From a virus (Duplodnaviria > Caudoviricetes): a DNA stretch of 58,007 nt. Shown here in pieces: positions 4,998 through 26,804 of this stretch (positions are counted from its first letter, which is position 1; the number at the start of each line of letters is the position of its first letter). The stretch spans positions 1-58,007 of the IMG/VR virus record IMGVR_UViG_3300028588_000795; one strand, given 5' to 3'. The notes beneath the pieces are model-generated. The model saw only the letters and a list, made by a program, of their open reading frames with translations. It made no database searches and was not told the origin of the DNA. The translations under genes and the position numbers were made by a program.

Positions 4998-5187
4998 GGT
5001 TCTGATCTCCTTGGGGTTCGCGTTGTTCTTGGGCTGGCGCCGGCTCGTTCGCCGCGGCTGCCGCGCGCTTTGCCGCAGCCAACTGCGCGTGGTACTGGTC
5101 GTCGAGGTCATCGAGCGCGCGGCGCTGCGCCCGGGTCGACGCGCCGCCATAGGCGACGGCGGCGGCATAGCTACGGCGGCGCTTCAT
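4990..5187 (-). CDS. Small hypothetical protein
   Basis: ATGA overlap with the rdgC stop. Confidence 0.5.
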   Translation of the reverse strand: MKRRRSYAAAVAYGGASTRAQRRALDDLDDQYHAQLAAAKRAAAAANEPAPAQEQREPQGDQNHD

Positions 5188-6083
5188 GCTTTTGCCTCGC
5201 CGCCCAGGGCTTCGACCAAGTCGGCCAGCATCTTGGCCAGCTCGCCCGTCATCAGCATGATGTCGTTGTCGAAGCGCTCGTCGTCGTTGTAGGTGACGGC
5301 CTGGCCTTCCTTGATCACGTCCAGCGGCTTGATGCTCTTGATCGCCAGCTGCTCGGTCAGCACGAAGGAGATGCGGCTGTTCCAGGTCATGGCCAGGCGG
5401 GTGCACTGCTTGCCGCCCGCGATGTGGCGGCGCATATCCTCGGGGTCCAGGCTGTGACGTTTGTAGCCGACCTCGGCCTTGCTCTCGCCGGTGGCGCGCA
5501 GCGTGGCATTCTGGTCGACCGTGAAGCCGGCCGGCGCCTCGTCGCTGTCCAGCCAGGCCGTCATCATCGCCACCGGCGAGCTCTGAACGCGCAGCGATTC
5601 GAGCGGCATGCGGTCGACCGCTTTGAGCAGCAGCTTGATGACGTCGTCGGCGCGGCTCGGGCTCGACGTGTCGATGACCAGCCACCCGTTCTTCGGATCG
5701 ATCCATGCCCAGATGCTGGAGCGGACTGACAAGGCGCGCGGCAGCAGCTCGTCGAGCGCGCGCTCCTTCAGCTCCTTCATCGCCTTCTTGCCTGGGCGGA
5801 AGCCTTGCTGCTTCTCGAGCTCGTCGGCCATGGAGTTCGCGCGCTGAGCCACCGCCTTCGCCGGCAGGATCTTCTTCTCGGTCGCCAGCTTGAGCAGGAA
5901 CTGGCCGGCCACGGCGTGCACCAGCGGCATGCCGGCACCGCGCGGCGGCTCCCAGCCCTGGCGCATCAGCTCGTTGCTCGACGCCGGCGAGAAGCGCTGC
6001 GGCTCGAGCAGGGCCGCCAACTGGTCGGCGATCATCAGGTACGGCGCCGGCAGGCGGTAAATCGACAGATTCTTGAACCACAT
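5184..6083 (-). CDS. rdgC: Recombination-associated protein RdgC
   Basis: MWFKNLSIYRL start, EKKILPA, LLPRA, ISFVLTEQLAIK, LVEALGGE end; 299 aa. Confidence 0.95.
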   Translation of the reverse strand: MWFKNLSIYRLPAPYLMIADQLAALLEPQRFSPASSNELMRQGWEPPRGAGMPLVHAVAGQFLLKLATEKKILPAKAVAQRANSMADELEKQQGFRPGKKAMKELKERALDELLPRALSVRSSIWAWIDPKNGWLVIDTSSPSRADDVIKLLLKAVDRMPLESLRVQSSPVAMMTAWLDSDEAPAGFTVDQNATLRATGESKAEVGYKRHSLDPEDMRRHIAGGKQCTRLAMTWNSRISFVLTEQLAIKSIKPLDVIKEGQAVTYNDDERFDNDIMLMTGELAKMLADLVEALGGEAKA

Positions 6084-6120
6084 CTCTTGGATTCCTTGTT
6101 TTGGTTGGGGGCGCTCGGCG

Positions 6121-6228
6121 CTACTGCGAGACTTCGACGGCCGGCGCATCGTCTACGCGCTGCACTTCGGCCACCAGGATCAGGAAGGCGAAAACGAACA
6201 CCACGGTCCAGCCGATCGAGCGGATCAC
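6121..6228 (-). CDS. 35-aa single-TM peptide
   Basis: GTGA coupling; hydrophobic IGWTVVFVFAFLILVA. Confidence 0.5.
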   Translation of the reverse strand: MIRSIGWTVVFVFAFLILVAEVQRVDDAPAVEVSQ

Positions 6229-7530: not shown

Positions 7531-7851
7531 TCATTTCCCTTGTTCGATCCACTGCTTGCGCGCCAGGATCAGCTCGGCCGGTTGCCACTTGGCCCAGTCG
7601 GTCAGCTGGGCGACCAGCTTCGCCTTCGGCACGCGCAGCTTTGCGGCCTTCGCATCGAGCAGGCCCGGCGCGGCCTTGATGTCGGCCAGCGCCTGCTTTG
7701 CCTCTGCCTTCAATTCGCGCAACCTGGCGGCCTTCGCTTTTCGATCGCCCATCGCTATAGCGGTCTGTTCGCGCTTGTAGCGGTCCAGCTGGGCGTCGAT
7801 GTCGCCGCGCTTGCTCAGTGGCGTGTTCAAGATTCCGTGGTCCAAGCTCAT
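7531..7851 (-). CDS. Basic hypothetical protein, first clear gene of the PL operon
   Basis: GGAG RBS; Lys/Ala-rich helical sequence. Confidence 0.7.
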   Translation of the reverse strand: MSLDHGILNTPLSKRGDIDAQLDRYKREQTAIAMGDRKAKAARLRELKAEAKQALADIKAAPGLLDAKAAKLRVPKAKLVAQLTDWAKWQPAELILARKQWIEQGK

Positions 7852-8044
7852 CGTTTGCTCCGTTCCGTGTTCGCGCGCCCTGCCTCAACCAAGTGCCAGC
7901 CCAACTGGCGCCGAATTTCTTCCAGGCTCGGCGGCGGCCTGTTCTCTTCCTGCCGCTGGAGCATCCAGCTACGCACCACTTGTCGGTCGGGCTTGCTGGT
8001 CTGCGGCATCGCTGGCTCCTGGTTGAGTTCGCTGCGTTGAGATC

Positions 8045-8073
8045 ATTATTAGGCATAACCTTAATCAATGCAA
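8045..8073 (-). promoter_or_regulatory. PL-like leftward early promoter
   Basis: Minus-strand TTGCAT-17bp-AATAAT with an operator in the spacer. Confidence 0.7.
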
Positions 8074-8106
8074 GGCTAAACCTAAATTTATTTTCAGGTT
8101 TAGCCT
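8051..8106. promoter_or_regulatory. OL: three repressor operators AGG-N5-CCT (8051-8061, 8073-8083, 8096-8106)
   Basis: AGGCATAACCT, AGGCTAAACCT, AGGTTTAGCCT at 22-23 bp spacing; the same motif occurs three times between cI and cro. Confidence 0.85.
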
Positions 8107-8121
8107 AAGTTGGGTTATGAT
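8093..8121 (+). promoter_or_regulatory. Rightward promoter overlapping the third OL operator
   Basis: TTCAGG-17bp-TATGAT; predicted start ~8127 coincides with a hairpin. Confidence 0.55.
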
Positions 8122-8126
8122 GCGTT

Positions 8127-8395
8127 GTCAGCCGAGTTCGGTTGACCGCTCTACCTGCAGAAAACACACAGGGGTAGGGGGATAGGTGAGACTGCGACCT
8201 GGTGAAAGAAACGGGGGGGCAAGGGTGAGACTCACACAGGGTGGCGAAGAGAGAGCCCTGTACCCGAAAGTCTGTCGGATGGTGCCTCGGGCGCTCACGC
8301 GCTTGTCGAGCTAACACCTGAAGGAAGCGACCACGCACGCGCTCGCGTTCGCACGCGTATTAGGTACTGTTTGGGGCTGGGGGCTAGAGAAAAAG
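8127..8395 (+). ncRNA. Candidate structured non-coding RNA (possible replication pre-primer)
   Basis: Stem-loops with G-U pairs (8127-8146; ACAGGGT..GCCCTGT; CCCGA..TCGGG), G-tracts at 8171-8181, 8213-8219 and 8373-8383, A-run at 8390-8394; no credible ORF. Confidence 0.45.
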
Positions 8396-8423
8396 AAAAG
8401 CTAACAAGCAGGAAATAAAAACC

Positions 8424-8490
8424 GGCAAGCGCAAGCTTGCCAGCATTACGAAGTAATGCGGCAGCAAGCGAAGCGCGCAGCGAAGCGGAG
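8424..8490 (+). other. Candidate primosome assembly site / single-strand initiation signal
   Basis: Hairpins GGCAAGC-GCAA-GCTTGCC and GCATTAC-GAA-GTAATGC, two GCGAAGC mini-hairpins, and GAAGCGG at 8482-8488. Confidence 0.45.
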
Positions 8491-8586
8491 GCAGTAGATG
8501 CGTGATTGATTAGGTAACAGATGCGTTATCTAAATTCTGAGCATGAGTTATCTAATACGCGCGAGGGCGCAGGAAGGCTGGAGGCG

Positions 8587-8778
8587 ATGACCAAACTGAA
8601 TGTGCCGTACGCGGAAAAAGACGAGGCTCGCCGCCTGGGCGCCAGGTGGGATGGGGAGCGGAAGACCTGGTATGCGCCAGCTGGGTCGATGCTCACGACG
8701 TTTGAGCGCTGGCTACCGAAGTTCGACATGAAGGCGCCGCGTGGCGCACGCAAGCCGAGGAAGCGCCGATCGAGGTAG
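8587..8778 (+). CDS. Stand-alone DUF5710-domain protein
   Basis: LNVPYAEKDEARRLGARWD..RKTWY motif; GGAGG RBS before ATG 8587. Confidence 0.8.
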   Translation: MTKLNVPYAEKDEARRLGARWDGERKTWYAPAGSMLTTFERWLPKFDMKAPRGARKPRKRRSR

Positions 8779-8823
8779 GCCGGGCCCAGCGATACCGCAC
8801 GCGCAAGTCAGCGCCTTGGGCGT

Positions 8824-8852
8824 AAAAAAGCCCGCTCGGGGCGGGCTTCTTT
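8824..8852. terminator. Bidirectional intrinsic terminator
   Basis: AAAAAAGCCCGC-TCGGG-GCGGGCTTCTTT between convergent genes. Confidence 0.8.
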
Positions 8853-8863
8853 GAATACAACTT

Positions 8864-9385
8864 TTATTCAACTGCCTTGAAGGGGTAAATTTGGCGGTAC
8901 CGGTTTTCGAGGGCCATGACTAAGCTAACGCCTGCGGAGCTTACCCCGCGGAGGGCCGAGTTTAGCTTGTCTCCGCTCGGGATTGCCGCAGTAGGGCCAG
9001 CAGCGGCCTTGTCAGTAACAGCCTGGCGGTACGCAACCAGGCTTCGCTGAATCTCCGGAGTGTTGAAAGGGGCGCACGCAACTACGGAGGCGTTCACTTG
9101 TTTTACCCCGAAAAATACTGTCCAGTAGCTCGCGGACGTGGCTCCTTCAGCTGACGTAAGATAAGACACAATGTCCGACTCTACGTTTCGCAAAGTGGAG
9201 GCGACTCCATTGATTTGGTCGCGCAGTTCCTTGCGCTCGTCGCGCTCTCCATTCTGCCTTCGAGACTCCTTCCATCCTTTGAAGACAAAAGTCCAAGTGA
9301 TGATGTAACCCAACACTTGAATAGTGACCTTCGCAACTTCCCACCAGTCGATTCCGCTAGCGGCGCTTGTTGTCGCGGCAGGCAT
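8864..9385 (-). CDS. Single-TM membrane protein with helical domain (third gene of the kinase-STAS operon)
   Basis: TM VTIQVLGYIITWTFVF followed by a charged coiled segment; overlaps the STAS gene end; start uncertain (9385 or 9445). Confidence 0.7.
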   Translation of the reverse strand: MPAATTSAASGIDWWEVAKVTIQVLGYIITWTFVFKGWKESRRQNGERDERKELRDQINGVASTLRNVESDIVSYLTSAEGATSASYWTVFFGVKQVNASVVACAPFNTPEIQRSLVAYRQAVTDKAAAGPTAAIPSGDKLNSALRGVSSAGVSLVMALENRYRQIYPFKAVE

Positions 9386-9695
9386 CAGCAATGTATCCCA
9401 GGGTTTCTTGCAGGTAGCTTTGATCGACGGGGTCATCGTCTGCAACTAGGAGTAATCTTTTCCGAACGTCTTCTTCGGTAAAGTTGAACTTGCGGACGAC
9501 CCCGCCGAATGACTCGTCGAGGAACGAGGACCCGAAGCCCTCTGTTCCACTAAGGTCAACCTTTAGATTCTCGCCAGCCGCAAGCGGCGGCTCCAAAAAT
9601 TGCTCTCTAAACCTCTGGCCGCTGTCGGGCCCATCGTCGTGGAAGCGCCCGACAGGATATGGCGAAAACTCTTTCGCGATGTGTATCACTTTCAT
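9357..9695 (-). CDS. STAS-like domain protein (DUF4325)
   Basis: GRFHDDGPDSGQRFRE...VDLSGTEGFGSSFLDESFGG. Confidence 0.85.
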   Translation of the reverse strand: MKVIHIAKEFSPYPVGRFHDDGPDSGQRFREQFLEPPLAAGENLKVDLSGTEGFGSSFLDESFGGVVRKFNFTEEDVRKRLLLVADDDPVDQSYLQETLGYIADACRDNKRR

Positions 9696-10810
9696 TTTTC
9701 CTCAGTCCCGCTCTCGTCTAAAGTTAAGAACGGCAATATTGCATCGAGTGGAATTGTCCACTCTACGAGTGTACCATTCAGCGCCAAATCGTGACCTTGA
9801 GCAAGCGAAACAGATTTGCCGTTACGGACACGATACACGTACTCCCCCTTTTTGCTCAAAATTCGTAAGGTGCCAGCTTGGCATAGGTCAATGATCTGCT
9901 TTAAGTCGTTCAAACCTTTCCCGCGATGAGTCTGGCCCATTCGAGATCTGCCAACCTCCATGGCAGCATGAATCATTGCCCCGTCACTGGCGTCGAGCTT
10001 CAGCGCGGCCAGCAGCATGGGGATCACGTCCTTGTGCGTGCGTGGGAGGCTGCGTGGGATTCCAATTCCTTGGTCGACGATCATGATCTTCAGTTCTTTC
10101 CTGAGCTTGTTGATGTGCCCAAGCATCCACCAACCTTTTTTGATGACCTTGATTGCTCCTACATCCCAGTCTTCCGGATATGCATGCTGAGAGACGTTGG
10201 TCATAGCTTCCGTCAGGCCTCGGAAGAATGACCCCTTTTTATCTTTAGGGAGCTGCTCTTCGTGCGGACCAAAGAGGGCCCGGCGAAGCTCTACTGCCAA
10301 TCGGCCGTCAGCTTGCGTCCCGCTTTGTACCTTTATGTACTCCAGCGGGAAGACCTTAGGTGCAACATCTAAAGAAGCCTTCACGCCAAGGGCATCGAAG
10401 AATCCGCTATCGCGCATTTGGCGATGGAGGCGTCTGTCACGTGGGTATGTTCCCGATAGCATTCTTACCCCAGAAACTTTGCGGCACCTGTCAATTTCTG
10501 CCACCAAGTACAGAATAGCGGCAGAGGAAATGAGCTTGGTGTCGCTGAAGTCAAGCACTGTTGGCTTTCGAGCGACGAGACAGTTCATTCGGCAGGCCGC
10601 TGCAAGTTCAAGCGTCGCATTGCGATTTGCTGTCAGGTCTAGTTCAGGTGGCACGGGCACGACTAACCGCTGATCTTTCCAGCTGTATTCACCGACCGCG
10701 TTGTGCTCAATACGCCGCTTCGCGTGCAGAAATGCCTTCCGTCTGTTGCGCGTGTAAGTTGTTCTCTGCTCGCGTATACGCTGTAGAGTGTCGTTTGGTA
10801 TGTTTGACAT
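9692..10810 (-). CDS. STAS-like + GHKL (HATPase_c) ATP-binding protein, RsbW/SpoIIAB-like kinase architecture
   Basis: N box EAMTNVSQHAY, G1 DQGIGI, G2 RGKGL, G3 GTLV; N-terminal LDFSDTKLISSAAILYL; no HisKA segment recognised. Confidence 0.8.
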   Translation of the reverse strand: MSNIPNDTLQRIREQRTTYTRNRRKAFLHAKRRIEHNAVGEYSWKDQRLVVPVPPELDLTANRNATLELAAACRMNCLVARKPTVLDFSDTKLISSAAILYLVAEIDRCRKVSGVRMLSGTYPRDRRLHRQMRDSGFFDALGVKASLDVAPKVFPLEYIKVQSGTQADGRLAVELRRALFGPHEEQLPKDKKGSFFRGLTEAMTNVSQHAYPEDWDVGAIKVIKKGWWMLGHINKLRKELKIMIVDQGIGIPRSLPRTHKDVIPMLLAALKLDASDGAMIHAAMEVGRSRMGQTHRGKGLNDLKQIIDLCQAGTLRILSKKGEYVYRVRNGKSVSLAQGHDLALNGTLVEWTIPLDAILPFLTLDESGTEEK

Positions 10811-11309: not shown

Positions 11310-11759
11310 TCAAAGTCTTCCGGTGACAATCCGGCCGGGCTGGTACACCATGCGCCCGACGACACTCATCTTGCCGCTGCGCACGTTGATCGGCCTGAAG
11401 GCCGGATTGAGATAGTTGAGATACCACTGTCCACCGCGCTGCACGAGCTGCTGAAGGCAGGCCTCGCCGTTCCAGTTCACTGCGTACACCTCGCCGCTTC
11501 GGAGTTGCGTGTCGCTGGTGTCGATCACGGCCCAGTCGTCCTCGAACAACATTGGCTCCATGCCTTGGTCGCGGACCTGCAGCGCAAGCAGCGCGGCCGG
11601 GTCAACCTTCAGCTGCGAAACCTCGGCAGCCGGCACCGCAACTACATCACCACCATCCATGGCTGGTTCGGTTTCGAAGCCCGAGATGCCGGCACGCAGT
11701 CGCAGCCGGACCCGTCGAACGAACTTAAAGTCGAGCGCGGTATTGCTGAGTGTCGTCAT
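11310..11759 (-). CDS. S24 peptidase-like domain lacking the HTH and catalytic residues
   Basis: RAG site, VRDQGMEP (Ser absent), CLQQL (Lys absent), VVGRMV; ATGA overlap with the cI stop. Confidence 0.8.
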   Translation of the reverse strand: MTTLSNTALDFKFVRRVRLRLRAGISGFETEPAMDGGDVVAVPAAEVSQLKVDPAALLALQVRDQGMEPMLFEDDWAVIDTSDTQLRSGEVYAVNWNGEACLQQLVQRGGQWYLNYLNPAFRPINVRSGKMSVVGRMVYQPGRIVTGRL

Positions 11760-12442
11760 ACGCTCGGCCGGAACGCCGCTTTCGGGATGTGGCCGAGAAC
11801 CAGGTGCATCTTCAGGATGTCCTCGCAGTCGATCACGATGTTCGGGAAGTCCTTGTTCACCGATTCAAAGCAGGCCTGCTTGTCCCGCACCCACAGCAGT
11901 CGCTTGATCATGCGCCGGCCGTCATGCATCAGAACGATCACCTCGTCGCTGGGCAGCACTTCCGCGCACGGATCCACGCCGACGAATTCACCCGGCAGGT
12001 AGCGCGGGCTCATGCTCTCGCCACGGACCCGCAGGGCGTACGCCTCAACGCATGAGGTGTACCAGGCCATGTAGCCATCGAGGTTATCGGAGGGTGAGTC
12101 ATCTACGTGCAGGAGTCCATCAGGACCGGCCTGGACGCGCCCAACAACTGGAATTAGACGAGGCGTTCCTAGAATTTCGGGCGCATCCTCCACCTCGTCA
12201 GCAGATCCGTCATTTGAGTCCGGTCGATGCGCGTCAGTAGGCGGTGGGGTTTCACCCATCAACTCGGAAAGAGATATGCGCAAGCGCTTGGCGAGGGCTG
12301 GCAATCTCGTCGCCTCCGGCATCCCTTTGCCATTCTCCCACGCCGACACATTAACGGACTTGATGCCCCAAATGTCGGCAATGTTCTGCTGGGTAAGTCC
12401 GAGCTCGCGGCGTCTTTTTCTTAGTATTTCGGAAAATTTCAT
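11756..12442 (-). CDS. cI: CI-like repressor (XRE HTH + S24 autopeptidase)
   Basis: RRRELGLTQQNIA..VSAWENG HTH; VQAG cleavage site; GESMSP and IKRL catalytic dyad. Confidence 0.93.
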   Translation of the reverse strand: MKFSEILRKRRRELGLTQQNIADIWGIKSVNVSAWENGKGMPEATRLPALAKRLRISLSELMGETPPPTDAHRPDSNDGSADEVEDAPEILGTPRLIPVVGRVQAGPDGLLHVDDSPSDNLDGYMAWYTSCVEAYALRVRGESMSPRYLPGEFVGVDPCAEVLPSDEVIVLMHDGRRMIKRLLWVRDKQACFESVNKDFPNIVIDCEDILKMHLVLGHIPKAAFRPSV

Positions 12443-12443
12443 A

Positions 12444-12502
12444 AGGCTAAGCCTAACAAAAATAATTTAGGTTTAACCTTGACTTGTTATTAGGTTTAAC
12501 CT
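12444..12502. promoter_or_regulatory. OR: three operators (12444-12454, 12469-12479, 12492-12502)
   Basis: AGGCTAAGCCT, AGGTTTAACCT, AGGTTTAACCT between divergent cI and cro. Confidence 0.85.
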
Positions 12503-15420: not shown

Positions 15421-15875
15421 CCCGCTCCCGCTATGTAACCCCCGGCCGCACCGCCGAGCGCATGGAGAAGATCCGCAAGCTGATCACCGCGCTGCAGGAG
15501 GAGGGCTACCTGATGCGCGACGAGATCGGCCCGATGTTGGGCTTGGGCCCGTCGGGCGTGCGCAAGTACCTCGCGGACCTGCGCGGCCAGGTCGAGGCAT
15601 CCTGGGATCGCGGCCACATCACCGTGCGCCTGACGATGTCCTCGAGCCAGACCGGGGCGTTCCTCAAGCGCCTCGCGGCCACCGCGCCGGCGCGCCCGAC
15701 TGGTATCTCGATGACGCCTGCGCGCATCGCGGCGGCAGAACCTGGTCGCCACTTCCACATCCTGGCCGACGACACGCACTACGCAATCCGCGTGAGCCGC
15801 GCGCCGGTTGCTCGTGATCCGATGGTTGCTGCGCTGTTCGGCGCCGGGCCGGCCAGGATGGAGGTACGCGCGTGA
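15417..15875 (+). CDS. Hypothetical protein with N-terminal HTH
   Basis: RDEIGPMLGLGPSGVRKYLADL; coupled. Confidence 0.65.
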   Translation: MTRSRYVTPGRTAERMEKIRKLITALQEEGYLMRDEIGPMLGLGPSGVRKYLADLRGQVEASWDRGHITVRLTMSSSQTGAFLKRLAATAPARPTGISMTPARIAAAEPGRHFHILADDTHYAIRVSRAPVARDPMVAALFGAGPARMEVRA

Positions 15876-17101
15876 ATCAGATCGATATTTTCGCTGGCGG
15901 TGCGCGGCGGTTGCAGATGACGGAATCGATCGAGCTGACGATCCAGTCGCTGCAGGCCTACGGCGCCGACCACGATCACTGGGGCGTGGCCTGGTCTGGC
16001 GGCAAAGACAGCTCGGCCACGCTGACGCTGCTCATTTACTTGCTGGACACCGGCAAGATCCCGCGCCCAAAGACACTGACCGTCTTTTACGCCGATACGC
16101 GCCAGGAGCTGCTGCCGCTCGCCGCATCGGCGAACCAGATCATGGATGAGTTGGCTGAGCGTGGCATCAAAGTCGAAGTCGTGATGGCGCCGCTGGACGA
16201 CCGCTTCATGGTCTATATCCTCGGCCGCGGCGTGCCGCCGCCGAACAACAACACGCTTCGCTGGTGCACTGGCCAGATCAAAATCGAACCGATGGAGGAG
16301 GCGCTTCGTCGCCACGTCGATCAGTTGGACGGCCAGATCCTGATGATTACCGGCGTGCGCCAGGGCGAGAGCGCGATCCGCGATCGCCGCATTGAGATGA
16401 GTTGCGGGAAGGACGGCGCCGAATGTGGCCAGGGCTGGTATCAGCAGGTCCTGCCGAATGCAAAGGGCCTACGCGGCCGGCTGGCTACCCTTGCGCCGCT
16501 GCTGCACTGGCGTGTGTGCCACGTGTGGGAGTGGCTCAAGCATTGGGCGCCGAGCGCGGAATTCGGCGACTGGAGCACGGCCGCAATCGCGGACGCATAC
16601 GGTGGTGACGAGGCCGAAGAGATCAATGCGCGCACTGGCTGTGTCGGATGCCCGCTCGCCCAAGAGGATTCGGCGCTCGACACCATCCTCAAGAACCCGC
16701 ATTGGACCTATCTGGCGCCGATGAAGGGCGTCAAGGTGCTGTGGCGAGAGCTGCGCGAGCCGCACAACCGCCTGCGCAAGTCCGGTGCCGAGCGCCTCAA
16801 AGACGGCAGCATCGGCAAGAACCCGCAGCGCATGGGGCCGTTGACGCTCGAAGCGCGGCTCATGGGGCTCGAGCGGCTGCTTGCGATCCAGGCCGAGGTG
16901 AACGAAGCGGCGGTCCGACTCGGCCGGCCGAAGGTCGACATGATCAATGCCGAAGAAGAGGCGCGCATTCGCGAGCTGATCGCCCTGAAGACCTGGCCGA
17001 ACAAATGGGACGGGAGCGAGCCGGTCGCGACCACGATCATGGATACCGTCTACCAGAACGGCGCCGTGCAGCCCCGGCTGTTTTCGGAGACCGAGCTATG
17101 A
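15872..17101 (+). CDS. PAPS-reductase family protein (DndC-like)
   Basis: PP-loop WSGGKDSS, RWCTGQIKIEP, GVRQGES..R, RTGCVGC, GPLT. Confidence 0.88.
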   Translation: MNQIDIFAGGARRLQMTESIELTIQSLQAYGADHDHWGVAWSGGKDSSATLTLLIYLLDTGKIPRPKTLTVFYADTRQELLPLAASANQIMDELAERGIKVEVVMAPLDDRFMVYILGRGVPPPNNNTLRWCTGQIKIEPMEEALRRHVDQLDGQILMITGVRQGESAIRDRRIEMSCGKDGAECGQGWYQQVLPNAKGLRGRLATLAPLLHWRVCHVWEWLKHWAPSAEFGDWSTAAIADAYGGDEAEEINARTGCVGCPLAQEDSALDTILKNPHWTYLAPMKGVKVLWRELREPHNRLRKSGAERLKDGSIGKNPQRMGPLTLEARLMGLERLLAIQAEVNEAAVRLGRPKVDMINAEEEARIRELIALKTWPNKWDGSEPVATTIMDTVYQNGAVQPRLFSETEL

Positions 17102-19897: not shown

Positions 19898-22516
19898 ATG
19901 TCTGCCAACATTTTACAAGAATACAACGTCTTCCTTCGCGACAAGATCAAACTGGCGCCGGCGCGCGGCTTCGATGTGCCTCTCGAGCAGATCAACCCGG
20001 GCCTGAAGCCGCACACCCGCGACATCGTGCGCTGGGCGCTGCAGGGCGGCCAGCGCGCCGTCTTCGCCTCGTTCGGCTTGCACAAGACCAGCACGAACCT
20101 CGAGGTGATGCGCCAGATCGGCATCCGCTTCCCCGATATGTACCGTCTTATCGTGCTGCCGCTTGGCGTGCGCCAGGAGTTCGTGCGCGAGGTGGCGAAA
20201 CGCTTCACCGGCGATTACGCCGTCGACCTGAAGTTCATCCGGTCGGACGACGAGATCGGCGGCCCGGGCACTGTCTACATGACGAACTATGAATCCGTCC
20301 GCGAGGGCAAGATCGACGTCGCCCGCTTCGGAGCGGCATCGCTCGATGAGGCCAGCGTGCTGCGCAGCTACGGCAGCAAGACCTACCAGGAATTCTTGCC
20401 GATGTTTGACCAGGTCGAATTCAAGTTCGTGTTCACGGCCACGCCGAGCCCGAACCGGTTCAAGGAGCTGATCCACTATGCCGGCTTCCTGGGTGTGATG
20501 GACACCGGCCAGGCGCTGACGCGCTTCTTCCAGCGCGACAGCGAGAAGGCCGGGAACCTGACCCTGTACCCACACAAGGAAACGGAGTTCTGGCTGTGGG
20601 TGGCCAGCTGGGCGTGCTTCATCCGCAAGCCGAGCGACCTGGGGCATTCGGACGCCGGCTACGACCTGCCGCCGCTCGAGGTGCACTACCACGAGGTGCC
20701 GAGCGACTACGAGGCGGCCGGCGCCGAGAAGAACGGCCAGGGCCTGCTGATCCCGAATGTTGCCATGGGCCTGTCGGCCGCCGCCGGCGAGAAGCGGCAG
20801 AGCCTGGCTGCGCGCGTCGCCAAGGTGGCGGAGATCGTCGGTGCGGCGCCGGCGGACCACTTCGTGATCTGGCACGACCTCGAGGACGAGCGGCACGCCA
20901 TCCAGGCGGCGCTGCCCGAGGCGATGAGCGTGTGGGGCACGCAGGACCTGGACGTGCGGGAGCAGCGCATCGCCGGGTTCAGCGACGGCGAGTTCCGGAT
21001 CCTGTCGACGAAGCCGATCATCGCCGGCAGCGGCTGCAACTTCCAGGTGCACTGCCACCGCGCGATCTTCGCCGGCATCGGTTTCAAGTTCAACGACTTC
21101 ATCCAGGCCATCCACCGGATCCAGCGCTTCCAGCAGGCGCACCCGGTACGCATCGACATCATCCACACCGAGGTCGAGCGTGCGGTGCTGGCCGAGCTGC
21201 AAGAGAAGTGGCGCCGGCACGACGAAATGCAGGAGAAGATGGGCGAGATCATCCGCTCGTACGGCCTGGACCAGCTGTCGATGCAGGATTCCCTGGCGCG
21301 CACGATCGGTGTCGAGCGACATGTGGTCACCGGCGAGCGCTTCACCGTCGCGAACAACGACTGCGTGCTGGAAGCGCTGCAGCAGCCGGACAACTCGGTC
21401 GGCCTGATCGTCACCAGCATCCCGTTCGCCAACCACTACGAATACACGCCCAGCTACAACGACTTCGGCCACACCCAGGACAACGCGCACTTCTGGTCGC
21501 AGATGGACTTCCTGACGCCGCAGCTGCGCCGGATCCTGCAGCCAGGCCGCATCTATGCCTGCCACGTGAAGGACCGGATCAACTTCGGCAACGTGACTGG
21601 CGCCGGCGTGCCGACCGTCAGTCCGTTCCACGCCGAGGCGCTGTTCCACGGCATGAAGCACGGCTTCGACTACCTGGGCATGATTACGGTGGTGACCGAC
21701 GTGGTGCGCGAGAACAACCAGACCTATCGCCTGGGGTACAGCGAGGTGTGCAAGGACGGCACGAAGATGGGCGTGGGATCGCCCGAGTACATCTTGCTAT
21801 TCCACAAGCCGCAGACCGACCGCAGCCGCGGCTACGCCGATGAGCCGGTGACGAAGGCCAAGCCGCTGTGCCTGGGCGAGGAGGGGGCGGAGGTCCCGTT
21901 CGACCGGCGGCTGCCGCCGGTGCCCGGTACCGGCTACAGCGTCGCGCGCTGGCAGGTCGACGCGCACGCATTCTGGCGCTCGAGCGGCGACCGGTTGCTG
22001 AGCGCGCAGGAGCTGGCCAGCTACGGCCCGGCCAAGCTGGCGAAGATGTTCACCGACCTGTCGCTGGCGAACGTCTACAACTACGAGTACCACGTCGCGG
22101 TCGGCGAGCAGATGCTTGCGAACAAGACCCTGCCGGCCACCTACATGAGCCTGGCGCCGGGCAGCACCGATCCGATGGTATGGCACGACATCGTGCGCAT
22201 GCGCACCCTGAACGGTGAGCAGTCGGCGCGCGCGGTCGAAAGCCACGTCTGCCCGTTCCAGATCGACATCGTCGACCGCCTGATCCAGCGATACAGCAAC
22301 CCGGGCGACGTCGTCTACGACCCGTTCTGCGGCCTGGGCACGGTGCCGGTGCGCGCCATGAAGCTGGGCCGGCGCGGCGCCGGGTCGGAACTGAACCCGG
22401 CCTACTTCGCCGACCAGGTGCACTACTGCCGCGCGATGGAGCGTGAGGTCAGCATGCCGTCGCTGTTCGACATGGAAGCGATGGATGCGGCGCAGCCGGA
22501 GCAGGAGGCGGCATGA
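19898..22516 (+). CDS. SF2 (SNF2-like) helicase domain fused to an N4/N6 DNA methyltransferase
   Basis: FGLHKT, LDEAS, TATPSPN, QAIHRIQRFQQ; MTase TSIPF (motif IV) preceding DPFCGLGT (motif I). Confidence 0.88.
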   Translation: MSANILQEYNVFLRDKIKLAPARGFDVPLEQINPGLKPHTRDIVRWALQGGQRAVFASFGLHKTSTNLEVMRQIGIRFPDMYRLIVLPLGVRQEFVREVAKRFTGDYAVDLKFIRSDDEIGGPGTVYMTNYESVREGKIDVARFGAASLDEASVLRSYGSKTYQEFLPMFDQVEFKFVFTATPSPNRFKELIHYAGFLGVMDTGQALTRFFQRDSEKAGNLTLYPHKETEFWLWVASWACFIRKPSDLGHSDAGYDLPPLEVHYHEVPSDYEAAGAEKNGQGLLIPNVAMGLSAAAGEKRQSLAARVAKVAEIVGAAPADHFVIWHDLEDERHAIQAALPEAMSVWGTQDLDVREQRIAGFSDGEFRILSTKPIIAGSGCNFQVHCHRAIFAGIGFKFNDFIQAIHRIQRFQQAHPVRIDIIHTEVERAVLAELQEKWRRHDEMQEKMGEIIRSYGLDQLSMQDSLARTIGVERHVVTGERFTVANNDCVLEALQQPDNSVGLIVTSIPFANHYEYTPSYNDFGHTQDNAHFWSQMDFLTPQLRRILQPGRIYACHVKDRINFGNVTGAGVPTVSPFHAEALFHGMKHGFDYLGMITVVTDVVRENNQTYRLGYSEVCKDGTKMGVGSPEYILLFHKPQTDRSRGYADEPVTKAKPLCLGEEGAEVPFDRRLPPVPGTGYSVARWQVDAHAFWRSSGDRLLSAQELASYGPAKLAKMFTDLSLANVYNYEYHVAVGEQMLANKTLPATYMSLAPGSTDPMVWHDIVRMRTLNGEQSARAVESHVCPFQIDIVDRLIQRYSNPGDVVYDPFCGLGTVPVRAMKLGRRGAGSELNPAYFADQVHYCRAMEREVSMPSLFDMEAMDAAQPEQEAA

Positions 22517-23028: not shown

Positions 23029-23817
23029 ATGGGAAGCATACTTAATTTGCAAGACAGCACGGCCGGCGCCGGCCTGATGCCTTTCCAGTTCGACGGCCTG
23101 CAGGTGCGAGTCGTCGCCGATGATGAGGGCGCGCCGTGGTTCGTGGCGCAGGACGTTTGCGCCATTCTCGACATCGGCACCGATCAAACCCGGCGCCTGG
23201 ATGAGGATGAGAAGGGTCTGCGTTCAATACAGACCCTGGGCGGCGCGCAGCAGATGGTGGCCGTCAACGAGTCGGGGCTGTATAACCTGGTGCTCGGTAG
23301 TCGAAAGCCGGAGGCGAAGGCGTTCAAGCGCTGGATCACGAAAGAGGTGCTGCCGGAGATCAGGCGCACCGGCGCCTACTCGCTTGCGCCCGCTGCAATG
23401 CCGGCGCTGCCGACGACATTCGCTGAGGCCCTGCGCCTGGCCGCCGACCAGCAGGATGTGATCACAGCCCAGGCCGCGCAGCTGGCCGCCGCCGCGCCAG
23501 CCGTTGAGTTCGTCGAGCGCTACGCAGACTCGACCGGCACGAAGGGCTTCCGCCAGGTGGCCAAGCTTCTGTGCGCGAACGAGAACCAGTTCCGCGAGTT
23601 CCTGATCGAATCGAAGATCATGTACCGCCTCGGCAGGGAGTTGACGCCCCACGCCCAGCACATCGACGCCGGCCGCTTCTGCGTGAAGGCCGGCACTGCG
23701 CAGGTCAGCGGGCATGCATGCAACGCCGCGCGCTTCACCCCAAAGGGCGTGACCTGGGTGGCGGGTGAATGGGCGAAGTGGCAGTTGAAGCAGCGCGAGG
23801 AGGGCGGCCATGCTTAG
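23029..23817 (+). CDS. BRO-N / KilA-C antirepressor-family protein
   Basis: PWFVAQDVC, VNESGLYNLVLGSRKPEAKAFKRWITKEVLPEIRRTG, FAEALRLAAD, FTPKGVTW. Confidence 0.9.
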   Translation: MGSILNLQDSTAGAGLMPFQFDGLQVRVVADDEGAPWFVAQDVCAILDIGTDQTRRLDEDEKGLRSIQTLGGAQQMVAVNESGLYNLVLGSRKPEAKAFKRWITKEVLPEIRRTGAYSLAPAAMPALPTTFAEALRLAADQQDVITAQAAQLAAAAPAVEFVERYADSTGTKGFRQVAKLLCANENQFREFLIESKIMYRLGRELTPHAQHIDAGRFCVKAGTAQVSGHACNAARFTPKGVTWVAGEWAKWQLKQREEGGHA

Positions 23818-24502
23818 CCTCGAAGCCCTGCGCCAGGCCGCCAAGGACGTGCCGGCCGTGCTGGTCCCATCCGACACCCTGAACGAGCTGCTAGACCTGG
23901 CCGAGAAGGTGAAGGCCAAGACCAAGGCGGCGAAGTCCGCCCGGGAGGTCGACCCGAACGACGAGAAATGCGCGCGCTGGCTGTTCGGCGTGGTGCAGAA
24001 GACGGCGCCCAAGGCCCGTGAGCCGAACTTCAACACCTGGGCCGATGACGTGCGCAAGATGCGCGAGCGCGACGACCGAACCCACAAGGAAATCTGCGAG
24101 TTGTTCAAGTGGGCGCACGAAGACCGCTTTTGGTGCGCGAACATCCTCTCGCCGGCGAAGCTGCGCGAGAAGTGGGACCAGCTATCGATCCTGCGCGCCA
24201 AGTCGCTCGAGCCGAAGAAGCCGGCCGGGAACTGGTGGGCGAGCGACGCCACGCGCCTGGCCAAGGCCATCGAGGTCGGTGTCGGGCCGGCGCACTTCGG
24301 CGAGTCGGCCGCCAGCTGGGAGGCGCGCATCCGGGTCGCGATCGACAACGGCGGCAAGCCGCCTGCGCCGCCGCGCCTGGCGCAGATCGTCACGCCGCCG
24401 CCCGCCGCGCCGGCGCTGGAGCAAAGCCCTGAACCGCCGCGCCGCGCCGGTCGGCCCGAAGGCCTCACGAAGATGCTGCGCGACCTAGGCCGGGCCGCAT
24501 GA
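23810..24502 (+). CDS. Replication protein O-like C-terminal domain only
   Basis: PNFNTWADDVRKMRERDDRTHKEICELFKWAHEDRFWCANILSPAKLREKWDQL resembles the lambda O C-terminus; only ~50 aa precede the conserved region. Confidence 0.8.
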   Translation: MLSLEALRQAAKDVPAVLVPSDTLNELLDLAEKVKAKTKAAKSAREVDPNDEKCARWLFGVVQKTAPKAREPNFNTWADDVRKMRERDDRTHKEICELFKWAHEDRFWCANILSPAKLREKWDQLSILRAKSLEPKKPAGNWWASDATRLAKAIEVGVGPAHFGESAASWEARIRVAIDNGGKPPAPPRLAQIVTPPPAAPALEQSPEPPRRAGRPEGLTKMLRDLGRAA

Positions 24503-24769: not shown

Positions 24770-25129
24770 ATGCAGGCCACAGCGATGACGAGCATGGGCA
24801 TAAACAGACGCCTGGCGGAGCTACTGGGCTGGACGGAGATTGTGAATGTCGGCGGCGCTTGGCTGGGTCGGCCGCCGGGCGGATCGCCGCGATCGCGCGA
24901 TCAGGCGCTCGTGCCGGACTGGTCGGGCGACTGGGCCGCTTGCGGGCCGCTCTTGGCGCGCTACGTCCGCCGACTGCAGCTGTGGCCGCACCGCGTAATC
25001 GCCGGCGCGACCTCGCCATCGGTCGACGACTGCGACTTCATGCAGGATCGCGAGGACGGCCAGGATGATGCCGCGCTGCGCCGGGTGATCGTGGCTGCAG
25101 TGATCCGCAAGCTGGAGATGCGCGGATGA
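24770..25129 (+). CDS. NinX/DUF2591-like protein
   Basis: LAELLGW...PDWSGDWAACGPLL. Confidence 0.55.
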   Translation: MQATAMTSMGINRRLAELLGWTEIVNVGGAWLGRPPGGSPRSRDQALVPDWSGDWAACGPLLARYVRRLQLWPHRVIAGATSPSVDDCDFMQDREDGQDDAALRRVIVAAVIRKLEMRG

Positions 25130-25476
25130 CGCAACAGAAAGCACTCCAGGCGCTGGGCCGGCTCAAGGTCGGCGCCATGAACAAGACCGAGGCCGCCTAC
25201 GCCGCCACGCTAGACCAGCGGCGTGCCGCCGGCGAGGTAGCCTGGTTCAAGTTCGAGGGGCTGAAATTCCGCCTGGCCGACAACACGTTCTACACGCCGG
25301 ACTTCGCCGTTATGCTTGCCGACGGGATGCTGGAGGCGCACGAGGTCAAGGGCTTCTGGCAGGACGATGCCCGCGCCAAGATCAAGATCGCGGCCGACCT
25401 GTACCCGCTGCGCTTCGTGGCCATCCGCGCGAAGCCGAAGAAGGAGGGCGGCGGCTGGGCAGTCGAGGAGTTCTAG
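25126..25476 (+). CDS. DUF1064-like PD-(D/E)XK endonuclease / resolvase
   Basis: MNKTEAAY, YTPDF, HEVKG. Confidence 0.8.
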   Translation: MTQQKALQALGRLKVGAMNKTEAAYAATLDQRRAAGEVAWFKFEGLKFRLADNTFYTPDFAVMLADGMLEAHEVKGFWQDDARAKIKIAADLYPLRFVAIRAKPKKEGGGWAVEEF

Positions 25477-26603
25477 CGCTTCTTTATTGGGGCAGAACTT
25501 TTTACGACCCTCTCCGGTGGAGGGGGCGTGCGCGGAATCCGTTTATTAGTTAGTTCTGATAAGCGCCTTATTTTATATTTTTCAAATATTTCTTTTGTCT
25601 TTTCCTCGCCATGCTTATCAATTAATATACCTGCAAGCTGGTCACTGATGTTCCGCCAGTTTTCTTGATTTTTCTGGCTAAGAAATTTTTCAGCATCCTG
25701 ATAAAGCATGGCTGCTCGGAGAAAGCTACTTACCCCAGGCCAGTTTTTGTAATGCTTCAGGTATTCGATAATAAAATTTTCAGATAACAGGCTTTGTAAG
25801 TCCTTTAGGCTTCTGATATCAAAAGCTTTTAGCTCCTCGAATAACCCCCAAGTCAATTGATCTTGGCTGAGATTGAATCCAAACATGGCGACCACATCCG
25901 GTATGCTGAGGATTAGCTCACTGAGACCGGCGGATGTCAGCTCTACATCCCGAAAATCCCCGGATTGTACGGCCGTCTTTGTTCGTTCCTTGTGAGCATC
26001 GACCTCGCGAGCTAAGGTATTAAACTCACGGTCGACAATCTCCAAGGTTCCCGCCAAAAGGTTTAAGCGGCGTTGAATCTCCAATGGAAGCTTTCCTGAG
26101 AATTTGTAACTCCGGTCGTGCTCGATTTCAGCCCAAGCGTGTTGAAGCACAGTTCTGACCTGAACCTCGAACGTTATGCCGTTGTACTGCCTCAATTCGG
26201 GAAGTGATACTCGAGCTTTTCCGAGTTCGCAAATATAATGAACCGATCGATATCCAATCTCGTTGATTTGCAGCTCCGACGATTTATCAATGCTTTTGTC
26301 TTGATGAATTTGAAACGAGTTTGAAATTAAGGCACAAATTCTATCGACATCTGACTCTATATAAGCAATTATTCGAACTCCGCAAATGTCTGTTAGCTCC
26401 TCAGTCGTCTGGTAGCCTTTTCGCTCAAGCTTATTGAGGATGCTCTCAAGAGCTTTTGTCCGAGCATGCACGCCTAAATGGTCAATGTTTTCCGATTTAA
26501 GCAGATTCGATATGGTTGTTGTTACTACATCACTAAGGCTGCGATATATATCAGAATTTTTGCGGTACCACTCGGCTGCATTAGCTGGCGTGATTTCACT
26601 CAT
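25473..26603 (-). CDS. RelA/SpoT-domain nucleotidyltransferase (small alarmone synthetase-like) with unknown C-terminal domain; moron
   Basis: RTK..SILNKLERK, DICGVRI, GYRSVHY, EVQVRTVLQHAWAEIEHD..YK; AT-rich and antisense. Confidence 0.9.
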   Translation of the reverse strand: MSEITPANAAEWYRKNSDIYRSLSDVVTTTISNLLKSENIDHLGVHARTKALESILNKLERKGYQTTEELTDICGVRIIAYIESDVDRICALISNSFQIHQDKSIDKSSELQINEIGYRSVHYICELGKARVSLPELRQYNGITFEVQVRTVLQHAWAEIEHDRSYKFSGKLPLEIQRRLNLLAGTLEIVDREFNTLAREVDAHKERTKTAVQSGDFRDVELTSAGLSELILSIPDVVAMFGFNLSQDQLTWGLFEELKAFDIRSLKDLQSLLSENFIIEYLKHYKNWPGVSSFLRAAMLYQDAEKFLSQKNQENWRNISDQLAGILIDKHGEEKTKEIFEKYKIRRLSELTNKRIPRTPPPPERVVKSSAPIKKR

Positions 26604-26804
26604 GTTTATTCAACGTGGATGCAAGAAATTGGTTTTCTACAAGAGTACTCTCATAATATCATGACTTTTATATAACTATCATGAGAGCTTGTAATAAATA
26701 GTAATGCGCAGCTACAACACGTTGTCATTTGGAAAATGTCGGGGCAGCCCTTAAATTTCCAGGGTGCATGATAGGCTTGCTCAGCTATATAACTGGAGCC
26801 TGCC

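What the first reader, a model, noticed from the sequence alone, without database searches (positions are those of the whole stretch)
8093..8520. Candidate repressor-gated, ColE1-like RNA-primed replication origin next to OL
Seen in sequence, in order on the + strand: a promoter (TTCAGG-17-TATGAT) whose -35/spacer is covered by the third OL operator; ~270 nt without a credible ORF that forms stem-loops containing G-U pairs, starting at the predicted start site; an internal GAAACGGGGGGG tract; a terminal GGGGCTGGGGGCTAGAGAAAAAG (G-tract then A-run); and 30-95 nt further a hairpin cluster ending GCGCAGCGAAGCGGA. Established knowledge (sequences recalled from memory): ColE1 RNA II contains GAACGGGGGG, ends at GGGGGGCGGAGCCTATGGAAAAA where RNase H makes the primer, and is followed on the same strand by a PriA pas containing GCGCAGCGA...GAAGCGGA. 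Inference: this phage may start replication from an R-loop primer whose transcription CI shuts off, rather than from O-bound iterons. I know of no described lambdoid phage with this arrangement.
Basis: partly seen in the sequence, partly recalled or inferred. Interest (0 to 1): 0.88.

Follow-up and report, generated by a model that had tools for sequence, protein, structure and literature searches.

The report
Repressor-gated structured RNA in prophage
Next to the prophage's left operator lies a gene for a large folded RNA from a known but unexplained phage RNA family; the phage repressor probably switches it off, and it shows no real kinship to the ColE1 plasmid replication primer.

Summary
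The ColE1 reading does not hold. Window 8147-8280 (+) matches Rfam RF02932, the Betaproteobacteria-1 RNA, at 59.3 bits against a cut-off of 49.4 (E 1.8e-8). Its function is unknown.

- **No ColE1 kinship.** blastn against 72,556 plasmids and directly against ColE1 found no kinship.
- **Repressor control.** The 11-bp operator AGGYWWARCCT occurs six times, only at OL and OR. OL3 covers the -35 and spacer of a rightward promoter. Its -10 is kept in 15 of 15 relatives, although their operator DNA differs.
- **Structure.** Covariation supports a pseudoknotted core. It also supports a 3' domain beyond the Rfam model.
- **Size in this lineage.** Here the fold runs from about 8128 to 8566, ending 20 nt before a small DUF5710 gene.
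- **Context elsewhere.** The RNA sits co-directionally in early operons, often beside Cro-like, helicase or primase genes.
- **Conventional initiator.** An O-like initiator gene lies at 23810-24502.

Best reading: a repressor-gated early structured RNA that acts as folded RNA. A link to replication is neither shown nor excluded.

The parts
8051..8061 (.). Operator OL1 (AGGCATAACCT), between the -35 and -10 of the leftward promoter PL
   Evidence: Pattern AGGYWWARCCT: 6 sites, only at OL and OR, 0.11 expected; sequence read
8073..8083 (.). Operator OL2 (AGGCTAAACCT)
   Evidence: forms a 14-nt inverted repeat with OL3 (I1)
8096..8106 (.). Operator OL3 (AGGTTTAGCCT), covering the -35 and spacer of the rightward RNA promoter
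   Evidence: Repression by CI is inferred from this geometry, about -32 to -22 relative to a start near 8128
8044..8073 (-). Leftward early promoter PL (TTGCAT at 8073-8068; TAATAA/ATAAT around 8051-8044). The first left-operon ORF starts at 8009
   Evidence: Read; same operator/promoter layout as PR (TTGACT-17-GATACT). Not found by the consensus scan
8093..8121 (+). Rightward promoter of the RNA: -35 TTCAGG (8093-8098), 17-nt spacer, -10 TATGAT (8116-8121)
   Evidence: -10 TAnnAT kept in the same column in 15 of 15 relatives despite unrelated operator DNA; below the tool's threshold
8128..8145 (+). 5' hairpin P0 at the predicted transcript start
   Evidence: Arms change in step in relatives (GUCAGCC/GGUUGAC, GUCGGCC/GGCUGAC, GUCGCG/UGCGAC), read; contains G.U pairs
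8147..8280 (+). Core of the RNA: match to Rfam RF02932 (Betaproteobacteria-1), helices P1, P2, P3. A 33-nt insertion in the P2 apex holds the G7 tract 8213-8219
   Evidence: 59.3 bits against cut-off 49.4, E 1.8e-8, model 1-120
8236..8276 (+). Pseudoknot: helix A (8236-8241 with 8256-8261) interleaved with P3 (8249-8254 with 8271-8276), around the invariant GGUGGCGAAG (8240-8249)
   Evidence: 57-sequence alignment: 89.9% of cells paired against 67.5% in shuffles (0 of 500); slid controls 34-46%
8281..8420 (+). 3' domain shared with the whole family in reduced form. It holds a hairpin at 8287-8311, UGAAGG at 8319-8324, the G-rich GGGGCUGGGGGCUAG, an A-rich tail, and the box AGCUAACA twice (8309-8316, 8399-8406)
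   Evidence: boxes read
8348..8566 (+). Long-range helix (about 8348-8363 with 8552-8566) closing a roughly 190-nt domain. Inside it is a hairpin, 8511-8517 with 8527-8533
   Evidence: RNAalifold on 13 relatives: pairs kept in all groups, both sides changed at one pair in 4 sequences, G.U/A-U/G-C swaps at others
8421..8444 (-). Hairpin followed by a T run on the - strand (terminator-like). On the + strand it lies inside the RNA
   Evidence: two compensatory changes in L076 (read by eye). Role unclear
8587..8778 (+). Small gene, 63 aa, DUF5710 domain. GGAGG at 8580-8584. The upstream ATG at 8521 is not kept in L076
   Evidence: PF18974 E 4.8e-21. Follows the RNA in 10 of the 15 aligned loci, window included
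8824..8852 (.). Two-way intrinsic terminator ending the RNA/DUF5710 unit and the convergent - strand genes
   Evidence: I3; kept in L257, L259, L277

Best explanation
The region is a small early transcription unit that diverges from PL inside the OL operator cluster. Its main product is a large structured non-coding RNA.

The RNA's 5' third is a divergent member of the Rfam family RF02932 (Betaproteobacteria-1 RNA). In this lineage the conserved fold continues to about 8566. A 63-aa DUF5710 gene and a terminator follow.

CI bound at OL3 should block the promoter, so the RNA would be made only when repression is lifted (inferred from geometry). The RNA acts as a folded molecule with a pseudoknotted core and conserved unpaired stretches. 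It is not a ColE1-type primer.

No phage protein co-occurs with it across nine RNA-bearing genomes. I therefore favour an early phage RNA that works with a host factor, or on its own transcript. That last step is inference, at roughly 0.3.
For: - Family identity: RF02932 above the curated cut-off in the window. The same family is above the cut-off in 43 of 50 pattern-selected viral records, one copy each. It is also above it in 20 of 37 pattern-selected genomes, with 1-4 matches each at E <= 0.001. By record title the positives are Burkholderiales.
- Structure of the core: P1, P2, helix A and P3 give 89.9% paired against 67.5% shuffled, and 322 against 102 double changes, both 0 of 500. U.G at one P3 pair in 47 of 57 sequences makes the fold specific to the + strand.
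- Structure of the 3' domain: P4 gives 88.9% against 57.2%. P6 has a mean stem of 8.3 against 5.9 bp, with 69 distinct stems. A long-range helix and inner hairpin are kept in 13 relatives.
- Control: 6 operator sites occur only at OL and OR. CI has HTH_3 plus Peptidase_S24 at 11756-12442. The -10 is kept in 15 of 15 relatives with different operators.
- Context: nearest recognised genes lie on the same strand in 70 of 76 loci upstream and 57 of 57 downstream. In Acidovorax phage AP1 the RNA (93.4 bits) fills an unannotated 293-nt gap starting 35 nt after the primase stop.
- Partner: no protein cluster is shared by all 9 RNA-bearing genomes.
Against: - There are no expression data. No RNA run holds the stretch, and the laid contigs were single reads of unknown kind.
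- The promoter fails the consensus scan.
- The single-sequence fold energy is ordinary.
- The window copy scores far below typical members (59 against about 90-110 bits).
- The family's function is unknown, so 'host-directed regulatory RNA' is a default, not a finding.
- The long-form fold rests on 13 sequences in about four divergence groups.
- CI could in principle activate rather than repress from OL2.
Confidence: 0.75

Rival explanations
1. One reading: a ColE1-like origin. The transcript forms an R-loop, RNase H cuts it at the G-tract/A-run near 8390, DNA polymerase I extends it, and a PriA assembly site follows.
For: - Three of the four recalled ColE1 strings exist in ColE1, and similar short strings exist here in the same order.
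- The transcript is G-rich (GC skew +0.198 for 8128-8420), which favours RNA-DNA hybrids.
- The promoter is repressor-gated.
- No iterons were seen in the O-like gene.
Against: - No plasmid of ColE1 type appears among the 14 weak hits from 72,556 records.
- There is no collinear alignment to ColE1; the best E is 0.098, outside the origin, and the spacings differ.
- No RNA I-like match or antisense promoter was found.
- The G7 tract sits in a length-variable P2 apex.
- The 'pas' hairpins are arms of helices of one large RNA fold.
- G-richness is shared by 113 of 113 family members, whatever their context.
- An O-like initiator gene is present.
Confidence: 0.04
2. A replication-linked RNA of another kind. 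The folded RNA, or transcription through it, helps to start or organise phage DNA replication, for instance by activating a nearby origin or recruiting helicase or primase-type proteins.
For: - 35 of 51 viral loci with at least 1.5 kb on both sides carry a replication-type gene within 3 kb.
- The order helicase, Toprim primase, RNA recurs in Comamonadaceae-type prophages and in phage AP1.
- The order RNA, ParB-N, helicase also occurs.
- Here the RNA precedes a DUF5710 gene, and one longer homologue (1 of 11) fuses that domain to a UvrD-type helicase.
Against: - No chance baseline for adjacency was computed, and early operons of small temperate phages are dense in replication genes.
- Downstream repeats are significant in only 5 of 113 loci, about chance.
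- In AP1 the gap holds nothing but the RNA.
- No replication protein is shared by all 9 genomes.
- In the window the O-like gene is 15 kb away.
Confidence: 0.12
3. A processive antitermination RNA in the manner of HK022 put. The nascent RNA modifies the polymerase that made it. Here that could carry transcription through the 8824-8852 terminator, antisense into the accessory genes and cI.
For: - In one common context the RNA lies directly after a Cro-like gene, where nutR and putR lie in lambda and HK022 (the positions of nutR/putR are recalled).
- It is always co-directional with downstream genes.
- No phage protein partner exists.
- There is one terminator downstream in the window.
Against: - There is only one copy per genome.
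- In many freshwater phages a hairpin plus T run stands immediately upstream of the RNA, not downstream.
- + strand terminators downstream are not consistent.
- No likeness to put was tested, because no model was at hand.
Confidence: 0.1
4. In this lineage the RNA is chiefly a 5' leader that controls translation or stability of the DUF5710 message. Alternatively it is a self-cleaving or processing element of the early transcript.
For: - The closing helix of the fold ends about 20 nt before the start codon, next to GGAGG.
- RNA, gene and terminator form one compact unit kept in 10 of the 15 aligned loci, window included.
- The family shows gene-independent placement in operons, as phage ribozymes do (the comparison is recalled).
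Against: - The flanking genes differ widely across the family.
- L258 and L267 keep the long fold without a DUF5710 gene.
- There is no terminator or start-site sequestering hairpin that recurs.
- No match to any Rfam ribozyme was found.
Confidence: 0.15

Closest known systems
Rfam RF02932, Betaproteobacteria-1 RNA motif (I recall that it was found by comparative genomics in Weinberg et al. 2017)
   Same: Full-length match above the curated cut-off. P1, P2, P3, the linker GGUGGCGAAG and the CGAAAG loop are all present.
   Different: - The score is low (59 against about 90-110 bits).
- There is a 33-nt insertion in P2.
- A 5' hairpin and about 290 nt of further conserved fold lie outside the 120-position model.
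- It has its own operator-covered promoter.
- The host is probably not among typical carriers: only trivial hits in 401 sampled Burkholderiales genomes.
ColE1 RNA II and origin
   Same: A promoter-driven, structured, G-rich non-coding transcript. A few short strings look alike.
   Different: No homology. No RNA I or antisense promoter. Different spacing. It lies in a phage early region, and it belongs to another RNA family.
DicF RNA of the Qin prophage (recalled: a small RNA inside an operon held off by the CI-like DicA)
   Same: A non-coding RNA in a lambdoid immunity or early region whose synthesis is held off by the prophage repressor.
   Different: DicF is a short antisense RNA cut from a longer message. 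This RNA is about 240 to 440 nt, pseudoknotted, and has no known target.
HK022 put RNAs (recalled)
   Same: A phage early-operon RNA that needs no phage protein. One family context is directly after a Cro-like gene.
   Different: put elements come as two sites of about 70 nt with two stem-loops. Here there is one copy, much larger. No antitermination evidence exists.
Large phage-associated structured RNAs such as GOLLD and ROOL (passages of PMC5737381 seen)
   Same: Large, conserved, complex folds carried by prophages, with function unknown when first described.
   Different: No sequence or model match. The context is early operons near replication genes, not tRNA clusters.

Membership tests
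Rfam RF02932 Betaproteobacteria-1 RNA | Covariance-model score at or above the curated gathering score over the full model | tested here: met
   59.3 bits against 49.4, model 1-120 of 120, E 1.8e-8 for the whole window
Rfam RF02932 Betaproteobacteria-1 RNA | Three hairpins, with the conserved linker GGUGGCGAAG and conserved P3 loop | tested here: met
   In the cmscan alignment six columns carry the non-standard-pair mark. The helices covary across 57 sequences including the window
Rfam RF02932 Betaproteobacteria-1 RNA | Carrier is a betaproteobacterium (Burkholderiales) or its phage | tested here: inconclusive
   The host is not known. The window-type block was not found in 401 sampled Burkholderiales genomes (3 hits of 23-36 nt). 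The best large terminase match is 62%, to a Pseudomonas phage
ColE1-type RNA-primed origin | Sequence kinship of the primer transcript and origin with ColE1/pMB1-type replicons | tested here: not met
   No such plasmid among the hits from 72,556 records. No collinear alignment to NC_001371
ColE1-type RNA-primed origin | Antisense RNA I with its promoter, opposite the 5' part of the primer | tested here: not met
   No RNA I family match at E up to 10 in 7800-8900. No promoter-like site on either strand in 7900-9000
ColE1-type RNA-primed origin | RNase H cut at the origin, extension by DNA polymerase I, PriA site downstream | not testable with these tools
   Needs mapping of RNA-DNA junctions and replication tests in polA, rnhA and priA hosts. 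Only an 8-mer (GAAGCGGA) is shared with the ColE1 region
Lambdoid operator-promoter region (OL) | Several copies of the operator that also stands at OR, next to a CI repressor gene with an HTH and an S24 cleavage domain | tested here: met
   3 + 3 sites, none elsewhere in 58 kb. CI at 11756-12442 has HTH_3 and Peptidase_S24. A Cro-like ORF starts at 12517
Lambdoid operator-promoter region (OL) | Repressor binding that shuts the overlapping promoter | not testable with these tools
   Inferred from the overlap of OL3 with the -35 and spacer. Needs footprinting and reporter assays
HK022 put-type antitermination RNA | Two-stem-loop put fold acting in cis on terminators downstream | not tested
   No model of put was available. 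Context evidence is mixed

The most novel reading that the evidence does not exclude
The Betaproteobacteria-1 RNA is in fact a pseudoknotted phage RNA of 240 nt or more (about 440 nt here), with two co-varying identical single-stranded boxes. It would be a host-factor-dependent licence for phage DNA replication. It sits beside helicase, primase or initiator genes, and in this prophage it is the first thing transcribed when CI leaves OL. Release from repression and the start of replication would thus be coupled through an RNA, though not by the ColE1 mechanism.
Probability: 0.1. Interest if true: 0.85.

Novelty: new variant of a known kind. Interest (0 to 1): 0.42.

Why it matters
**The correction.** A striking claim, a plasmid-type RNA-primed origin in a lambdoid phage, rests on short look-alike strings and should not be carried forward.

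**What the work adds to an orphan RNA family:**
- It belongs to the early operons of temperate phages, including a cultured one, Acidovorax phage AP1.
- It is about twice the size of the catalogued motif.
- Its core is a pseudoknot.
- In one lineage it grew to about 440 nt and came under direct control of the immunity repressor.

Large, intricately folded RNAs with no protein partner are few, and past examples have turned out to be ribozymes or cores of ribonucleoprotein machines. A repressor-gated copy in an inducible prophage gives a simple handle: induce, map the ends, delete, and look at replication, transcription read-through and burst size.

Tried and rejected
**Expression data.** No listed holder of the stretch is on record as RNA. 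Four runs guessed to be RNA were laid. They gave only read-sized contigs (156-313 nt) with adapter ends, covering 7876-8045, 8185-8330, 8378-8685 and 8793-8828. This says nothing about transcription.

**Iterons as a family feature.** An exact 7-mer repeat test on 350 nt downstream of 113 non-redundant copies gave 5 at p <= 0.02, about chance. In the window, the apparent 22-23-bp repeats at 8489-8558 turned out to be arms of RNA helices.

**Iterons in the O-like gene.** Only weak two-copy repeats were found.

**An own terminator for the RNA, or a consistent terminator upstream.** My simple scan found no consistent site. By eye, many freshwater phages have a hairpin plus T run just upstream.

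**A cis partner for the two identical boxes.** None was found at a consistent place. Trans targets in 8 genomes could not be judged, because the boxes are only 6-8 nt.

**A shared phage protein partner.** None exists among the 9 genomes.

**RNAalifold on MAFFT alignments.** It missed P4 and P6. I counted P4 on columns I chose. P6 was judged only per sequence, because column counts for it were poor.

**DUF5710.**
- No solved structure (3 weak hits, E >= 0.05).
- No PADLOC match for it or for 5 neighbouring proteins.
- Among 11 longer homologues, 10 carry only this domain.
- My queries began at 8584, one codon before the ATG at 8587.

**Literature.**
- 'Betaproteobacteria-1' returned 3 unrelated papers (listing only).
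- The main text of PMC5737381 has 0 occurrences of 'betaproteobacteria' (find mode). Its supplements, which probably describe the motif, are closed.
- 'DUF5710' returned one paper (listing only).
- 'Acidovorax phage AP1' returned none.

**GenBank phages.** There was no match for the window region, for a Paraburkholderia copy or for a freshwater copy. A Comamonadaceae-type copy matched 2 records.

Full report
**Setting**

The window is a whole provirus record of 58,007 bp, 62.9% G+C, rated 97% complete. Its map is lambdoid.
- A leftward operon ends at 8009. It includes an RdgC gene at 5184-6149.
- A CI-type repressor with HTH_3 and Peptidase_S24 lies at 11756-12442 on the - strand.
- A Cro-like ORF starts at 12517, behind TTGACT-17-GATACT.
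- A rightward operon follows. It holds an antirepressor-type gene at 23029-23817 and an O-like/DnaD-like initiator gene at 23810-24502 (phrog_391, E 1.6e-39).

Between PL and cI lie the region in question on the + strand, a DUF5710 gene, a two-way terminator, and four - strand accessory ORFs.

**The observation**

The operator claim is strongly supported. AGGYWWARCCT occurs at 8051, 8073 and 8096 and at 12444, 12469 and 12492, and nowhere else. Shuffles expect 0.11 matches.

PL and PR share one layout: operator, -35, operator, -10. The third left operator covers the -35 and spacer of TTCAGG-17-TATGAT.

That promoter scores only 8 of 12 and fails the consensus scan. The comparative evidence is better. 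I aligned the window with 14 related viral loci found by two window-specific patterns. The operator DNA is unrelated between groups. Even so, a TAnnAT hexamer stands in the same column in 15 of 15, five to seven bases before a conserved 5' hairpin whose arms change in step. Repression by CI at OL3 is inferred from geometry, not shown.

**What the transcript is**

A scan of the whole window with all Rfam models at curated thresholds gives one match. RF02932, the Betaproteobacteria-1 RNA, matches 8147-8280 on the + strand at 59.3 bits (cut-off 49.4, E 1.8e-8, full model). The permissive scan of 7800-8900 adds only sub-threshold noise and nothing related to ColE1 RNA I.

The family is common in phages.
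- A 15-base pattern from its core found at least 120 viral contigs.
- Of the first 50 records, 43 have one match each above the cut-off.
- Of 37 bacterial genomes reached through a stricter pattern, 20 have a match above the cut-off, with 1-4 matches each at E <= 0.001. By record title these are Caballeronia, Paraburkholderia, Variovorax, Comamonas, Xenophilus and Achromobacter.
- A cultured phage carries it too. In Acidovorax phage AP1 the RNA (93.4 bits) starts 35 nt after the primase stop, in an unannotated 293-nt gap behind ParB-like, helicase and primase genes.

**Structure**

I aligned 57 diverse copies including the window. P1, P2 and P3 covary. So does a further helix (nnnGG/CCnnn) that encloses the 5' strand of P3, which makes the core a pseudoknot around the invariant GGUGGCGAAG.
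- 89.9% of cells pair, against 67.5% in shuffles (0 of 500).
- There are 322 double changes against 102.
- Partners slid by 1-3 columns give 34-46%.
- A U.G pair in 47 of 57 sequences shows that the fold belongs to the + strand.

Conservation continues past the 120-position model.
- Helix P4: 88.9% against 57.2%, 0 of 500. A helix of at least 5 bp forms in 75 of 109 copies, against 27% with partners taken from other sequences.
- The strings GGCUCC and UGAAGG.
- Hairpin P6: mean stem 8.3 bp against 5.9 shuffled, with 69 distinct 5' arms.
- An A-rich tail.

**The long form in the window's lineage**

Here the fold is longer still. RNAalifold on 13 relatives pairs about 8348-8363 with 8552-8566 and 8511-8517 with 8527-8533. 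These pairs are kept in all divergence groups with some compensatory change.

This accounts for the 'hairpin cluster' and the TTATCTAA repeats. It puts the 3' edge of the fold about 20 nt before the ATG at 8587.

The G7 tract lies in the apex of P2, which varies in length across the family. Within the window's subfamily the tract is kept in all 15.

By itself the window sequence does not fold better than shuffles. The case for structure rests on comparison.

**The ColE1 idea**

I fetched ColE1 (NC_001371). Three of the four recalled strings are there, at 924, 1175 and 1356. GCGCAGCGA is not.

The strings in the window are similar, not identical. Their spacing is 165 and 102 nt, against 251 and 181 nt in ColE1. 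blastn with words of 7 finds no collinear alignment, and the best hit (E 0.098) maps to 5552-5579, outside the origin.

A sensitive blastn of 8040-8560 against 72,556 plasmids returns 14 records, all covering 10% of the query or less, all at E >= 0.1. They are Sinorhizobium, Herbaspirillum and Caballeronia replicons. No antisense promoter or RNA I-like element was found.

The G-richness that would favour an R-loop is real (skew +0.198). But it is a property of 113 of 113 family members, mean +0.174. Membership in the ColE1 class is therefore tested and not met. The functional idea cannot be excluded by computation, but nothing specific remains to support it.

**Context across the family**

I clustered the ORFs around 100 viral copies and named representative clusters with Pfam and PHROGs. 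Recurring orders are:
- divergent small gene, Cro/YdaS-like gene, RNA, then genes that include a replication-initiator-like protein;
- DEAD/ResIII helicase, Toprim primase, RNA;
- RusA or HNH, RNA, ParB-N protein, helicase.

Of 51 loci with at least 1.5 kb on both sides, 35 have a replication-type gene and 22 a Cro-like gene within 3 kb. The nearest recognised genes are on the RNA's strand in 70 of 76 loci upstream and 57 of 57 downstream. I did not compute a chance baseline for this adjacency.

Several tests came out negative.
- Iteron-like repeats downstream are not enriched (5 of 113).
- Terminators are not consistently placed.
- No protein is shared by all nine RNA-bearing genomes I could compare.

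The window-type long form precedes a DUF5710 gene in 10 of the 15 aligned loci, window included. Two were cut short, and L258, L267 and L270 have other or no sequence there.

**An unexplained feature**

In most copies a string of 6-11 nt in the loop of P4 recurs, identical, just after P6, and it differs from phage to phage. The longest common string is at least 6 nt in 88 of 106 copies, against 35 of 106 after shuffling. No complementary partner lies at a consistent place nearby. In the window the repeated box is AGCUAACA at 8309-8316 and 8399-8406 (read).

**Conclusion**

The region is a repressor-gated early unit for a large structured RNA of a known family, followed by a small DUF5710 gene.

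I hold the identity and the non-ColE1 verdict with high confidence. I hold the repressor control with moderate confidence. The actual role I hold with low confidence: my preference is an RNA acting with host machinery early in lytic growth.

The rivals I rate as follows:
- a replication-linked role of another kind, about 0.12;
- a leader or processing element, about 0.15;
- put-like antitermination, about 0.1;
- the ColE1-type model, about 0.04.

Two limits apply. The supplements of the paper that defined the motif were closed and may already note its phage context.

Noticed in passing
window 8309-8316 and 8399-8406; family-wide in loci such as L127, L136, L156: Two identical single-stranded boxes of 6-11 nt, one in the P4 loop and one after P6, co-vary from phage to phage. 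The longest common string is at least 6 nt in 88 of 106 copies against 35 of 106 shuffled. No complementary partner was found in cis. Unexplained.
   Followed up: partly
L297:5949-6241 (Acidovorax phage AP1, OM049504 11822-12114): The unannotated gap after the primase gene of a cultured phage holds a full RF02932 RNA at 93.4 bits. The deposited annotation does not list it.
   Followed up: yes
window 8073-8106 versus 12444-12479: The OL2-spacer-OL3 stretch resembles the OR2-spacer-OR3 stretch read on the other strand (AAATTTATTTTC against AAATTATTTTTGTT). OL therefore looks like a partial copy of OR. At OR the third operator abuts the cI start codon, which suggests a leaderless cI message.
   Followed up: no
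window 9357-10810 (-): A gene pair sits between the RNA unit and cI, in a stretch of lower G+C (52-54%). One gene is a STAS-like DUF4325 protein; the other is a 372-aa protein with weak STAS and histidine-kinase-type ATPase matches. It looks like an accessory or defence cassette, but has no PADLOC match.
   Followed up: partly
window 11310-11759 (-): A second ORF with only a Peptidase_S24 domain, and no DNA-binding domain, overlaps the end of cI by 4 bases.
   Followed up: no
window 8421-8444 (-): A 10-bp hairpin followed by TTTTTATTT on the - strand scores as an intrinsic terminator and has compensatory changes in L076. A few other family members also have a - strand terminator right after the RNA (10 of 113 in the +250 bin). 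Its meaning is unclear, since the + strand copy lies inside the RNA fold.
   Followed up: partly
L259, L261, L262, L264-L266, L257 (aligned to window 8139-8146): One group of relatives carries an insertion of about 80 nt, itself G-rich and apparently structured, between the 5' hairpin and P1.
   Followed up: no
window 23810-24502: The O-like/DnaD-like initiator gene shows no clear iteron array, only weak two-copy repeats. The conventional origin of this prophage is therefore not located either.
   Followed up: partly
window 25001-27000: A low-G+C island (54.5% and 46.7% against 63% overall), with few ORFs passing the codon-position filter. It is possibly a foreign insert.
   Followed up: no
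window 15872-17101 and 19898-22516: A PAPS-reductase-domain protein and an 872-aa protein with an N6/N4 DNA methylase domain lie in the early right operon.
   Followed up: no
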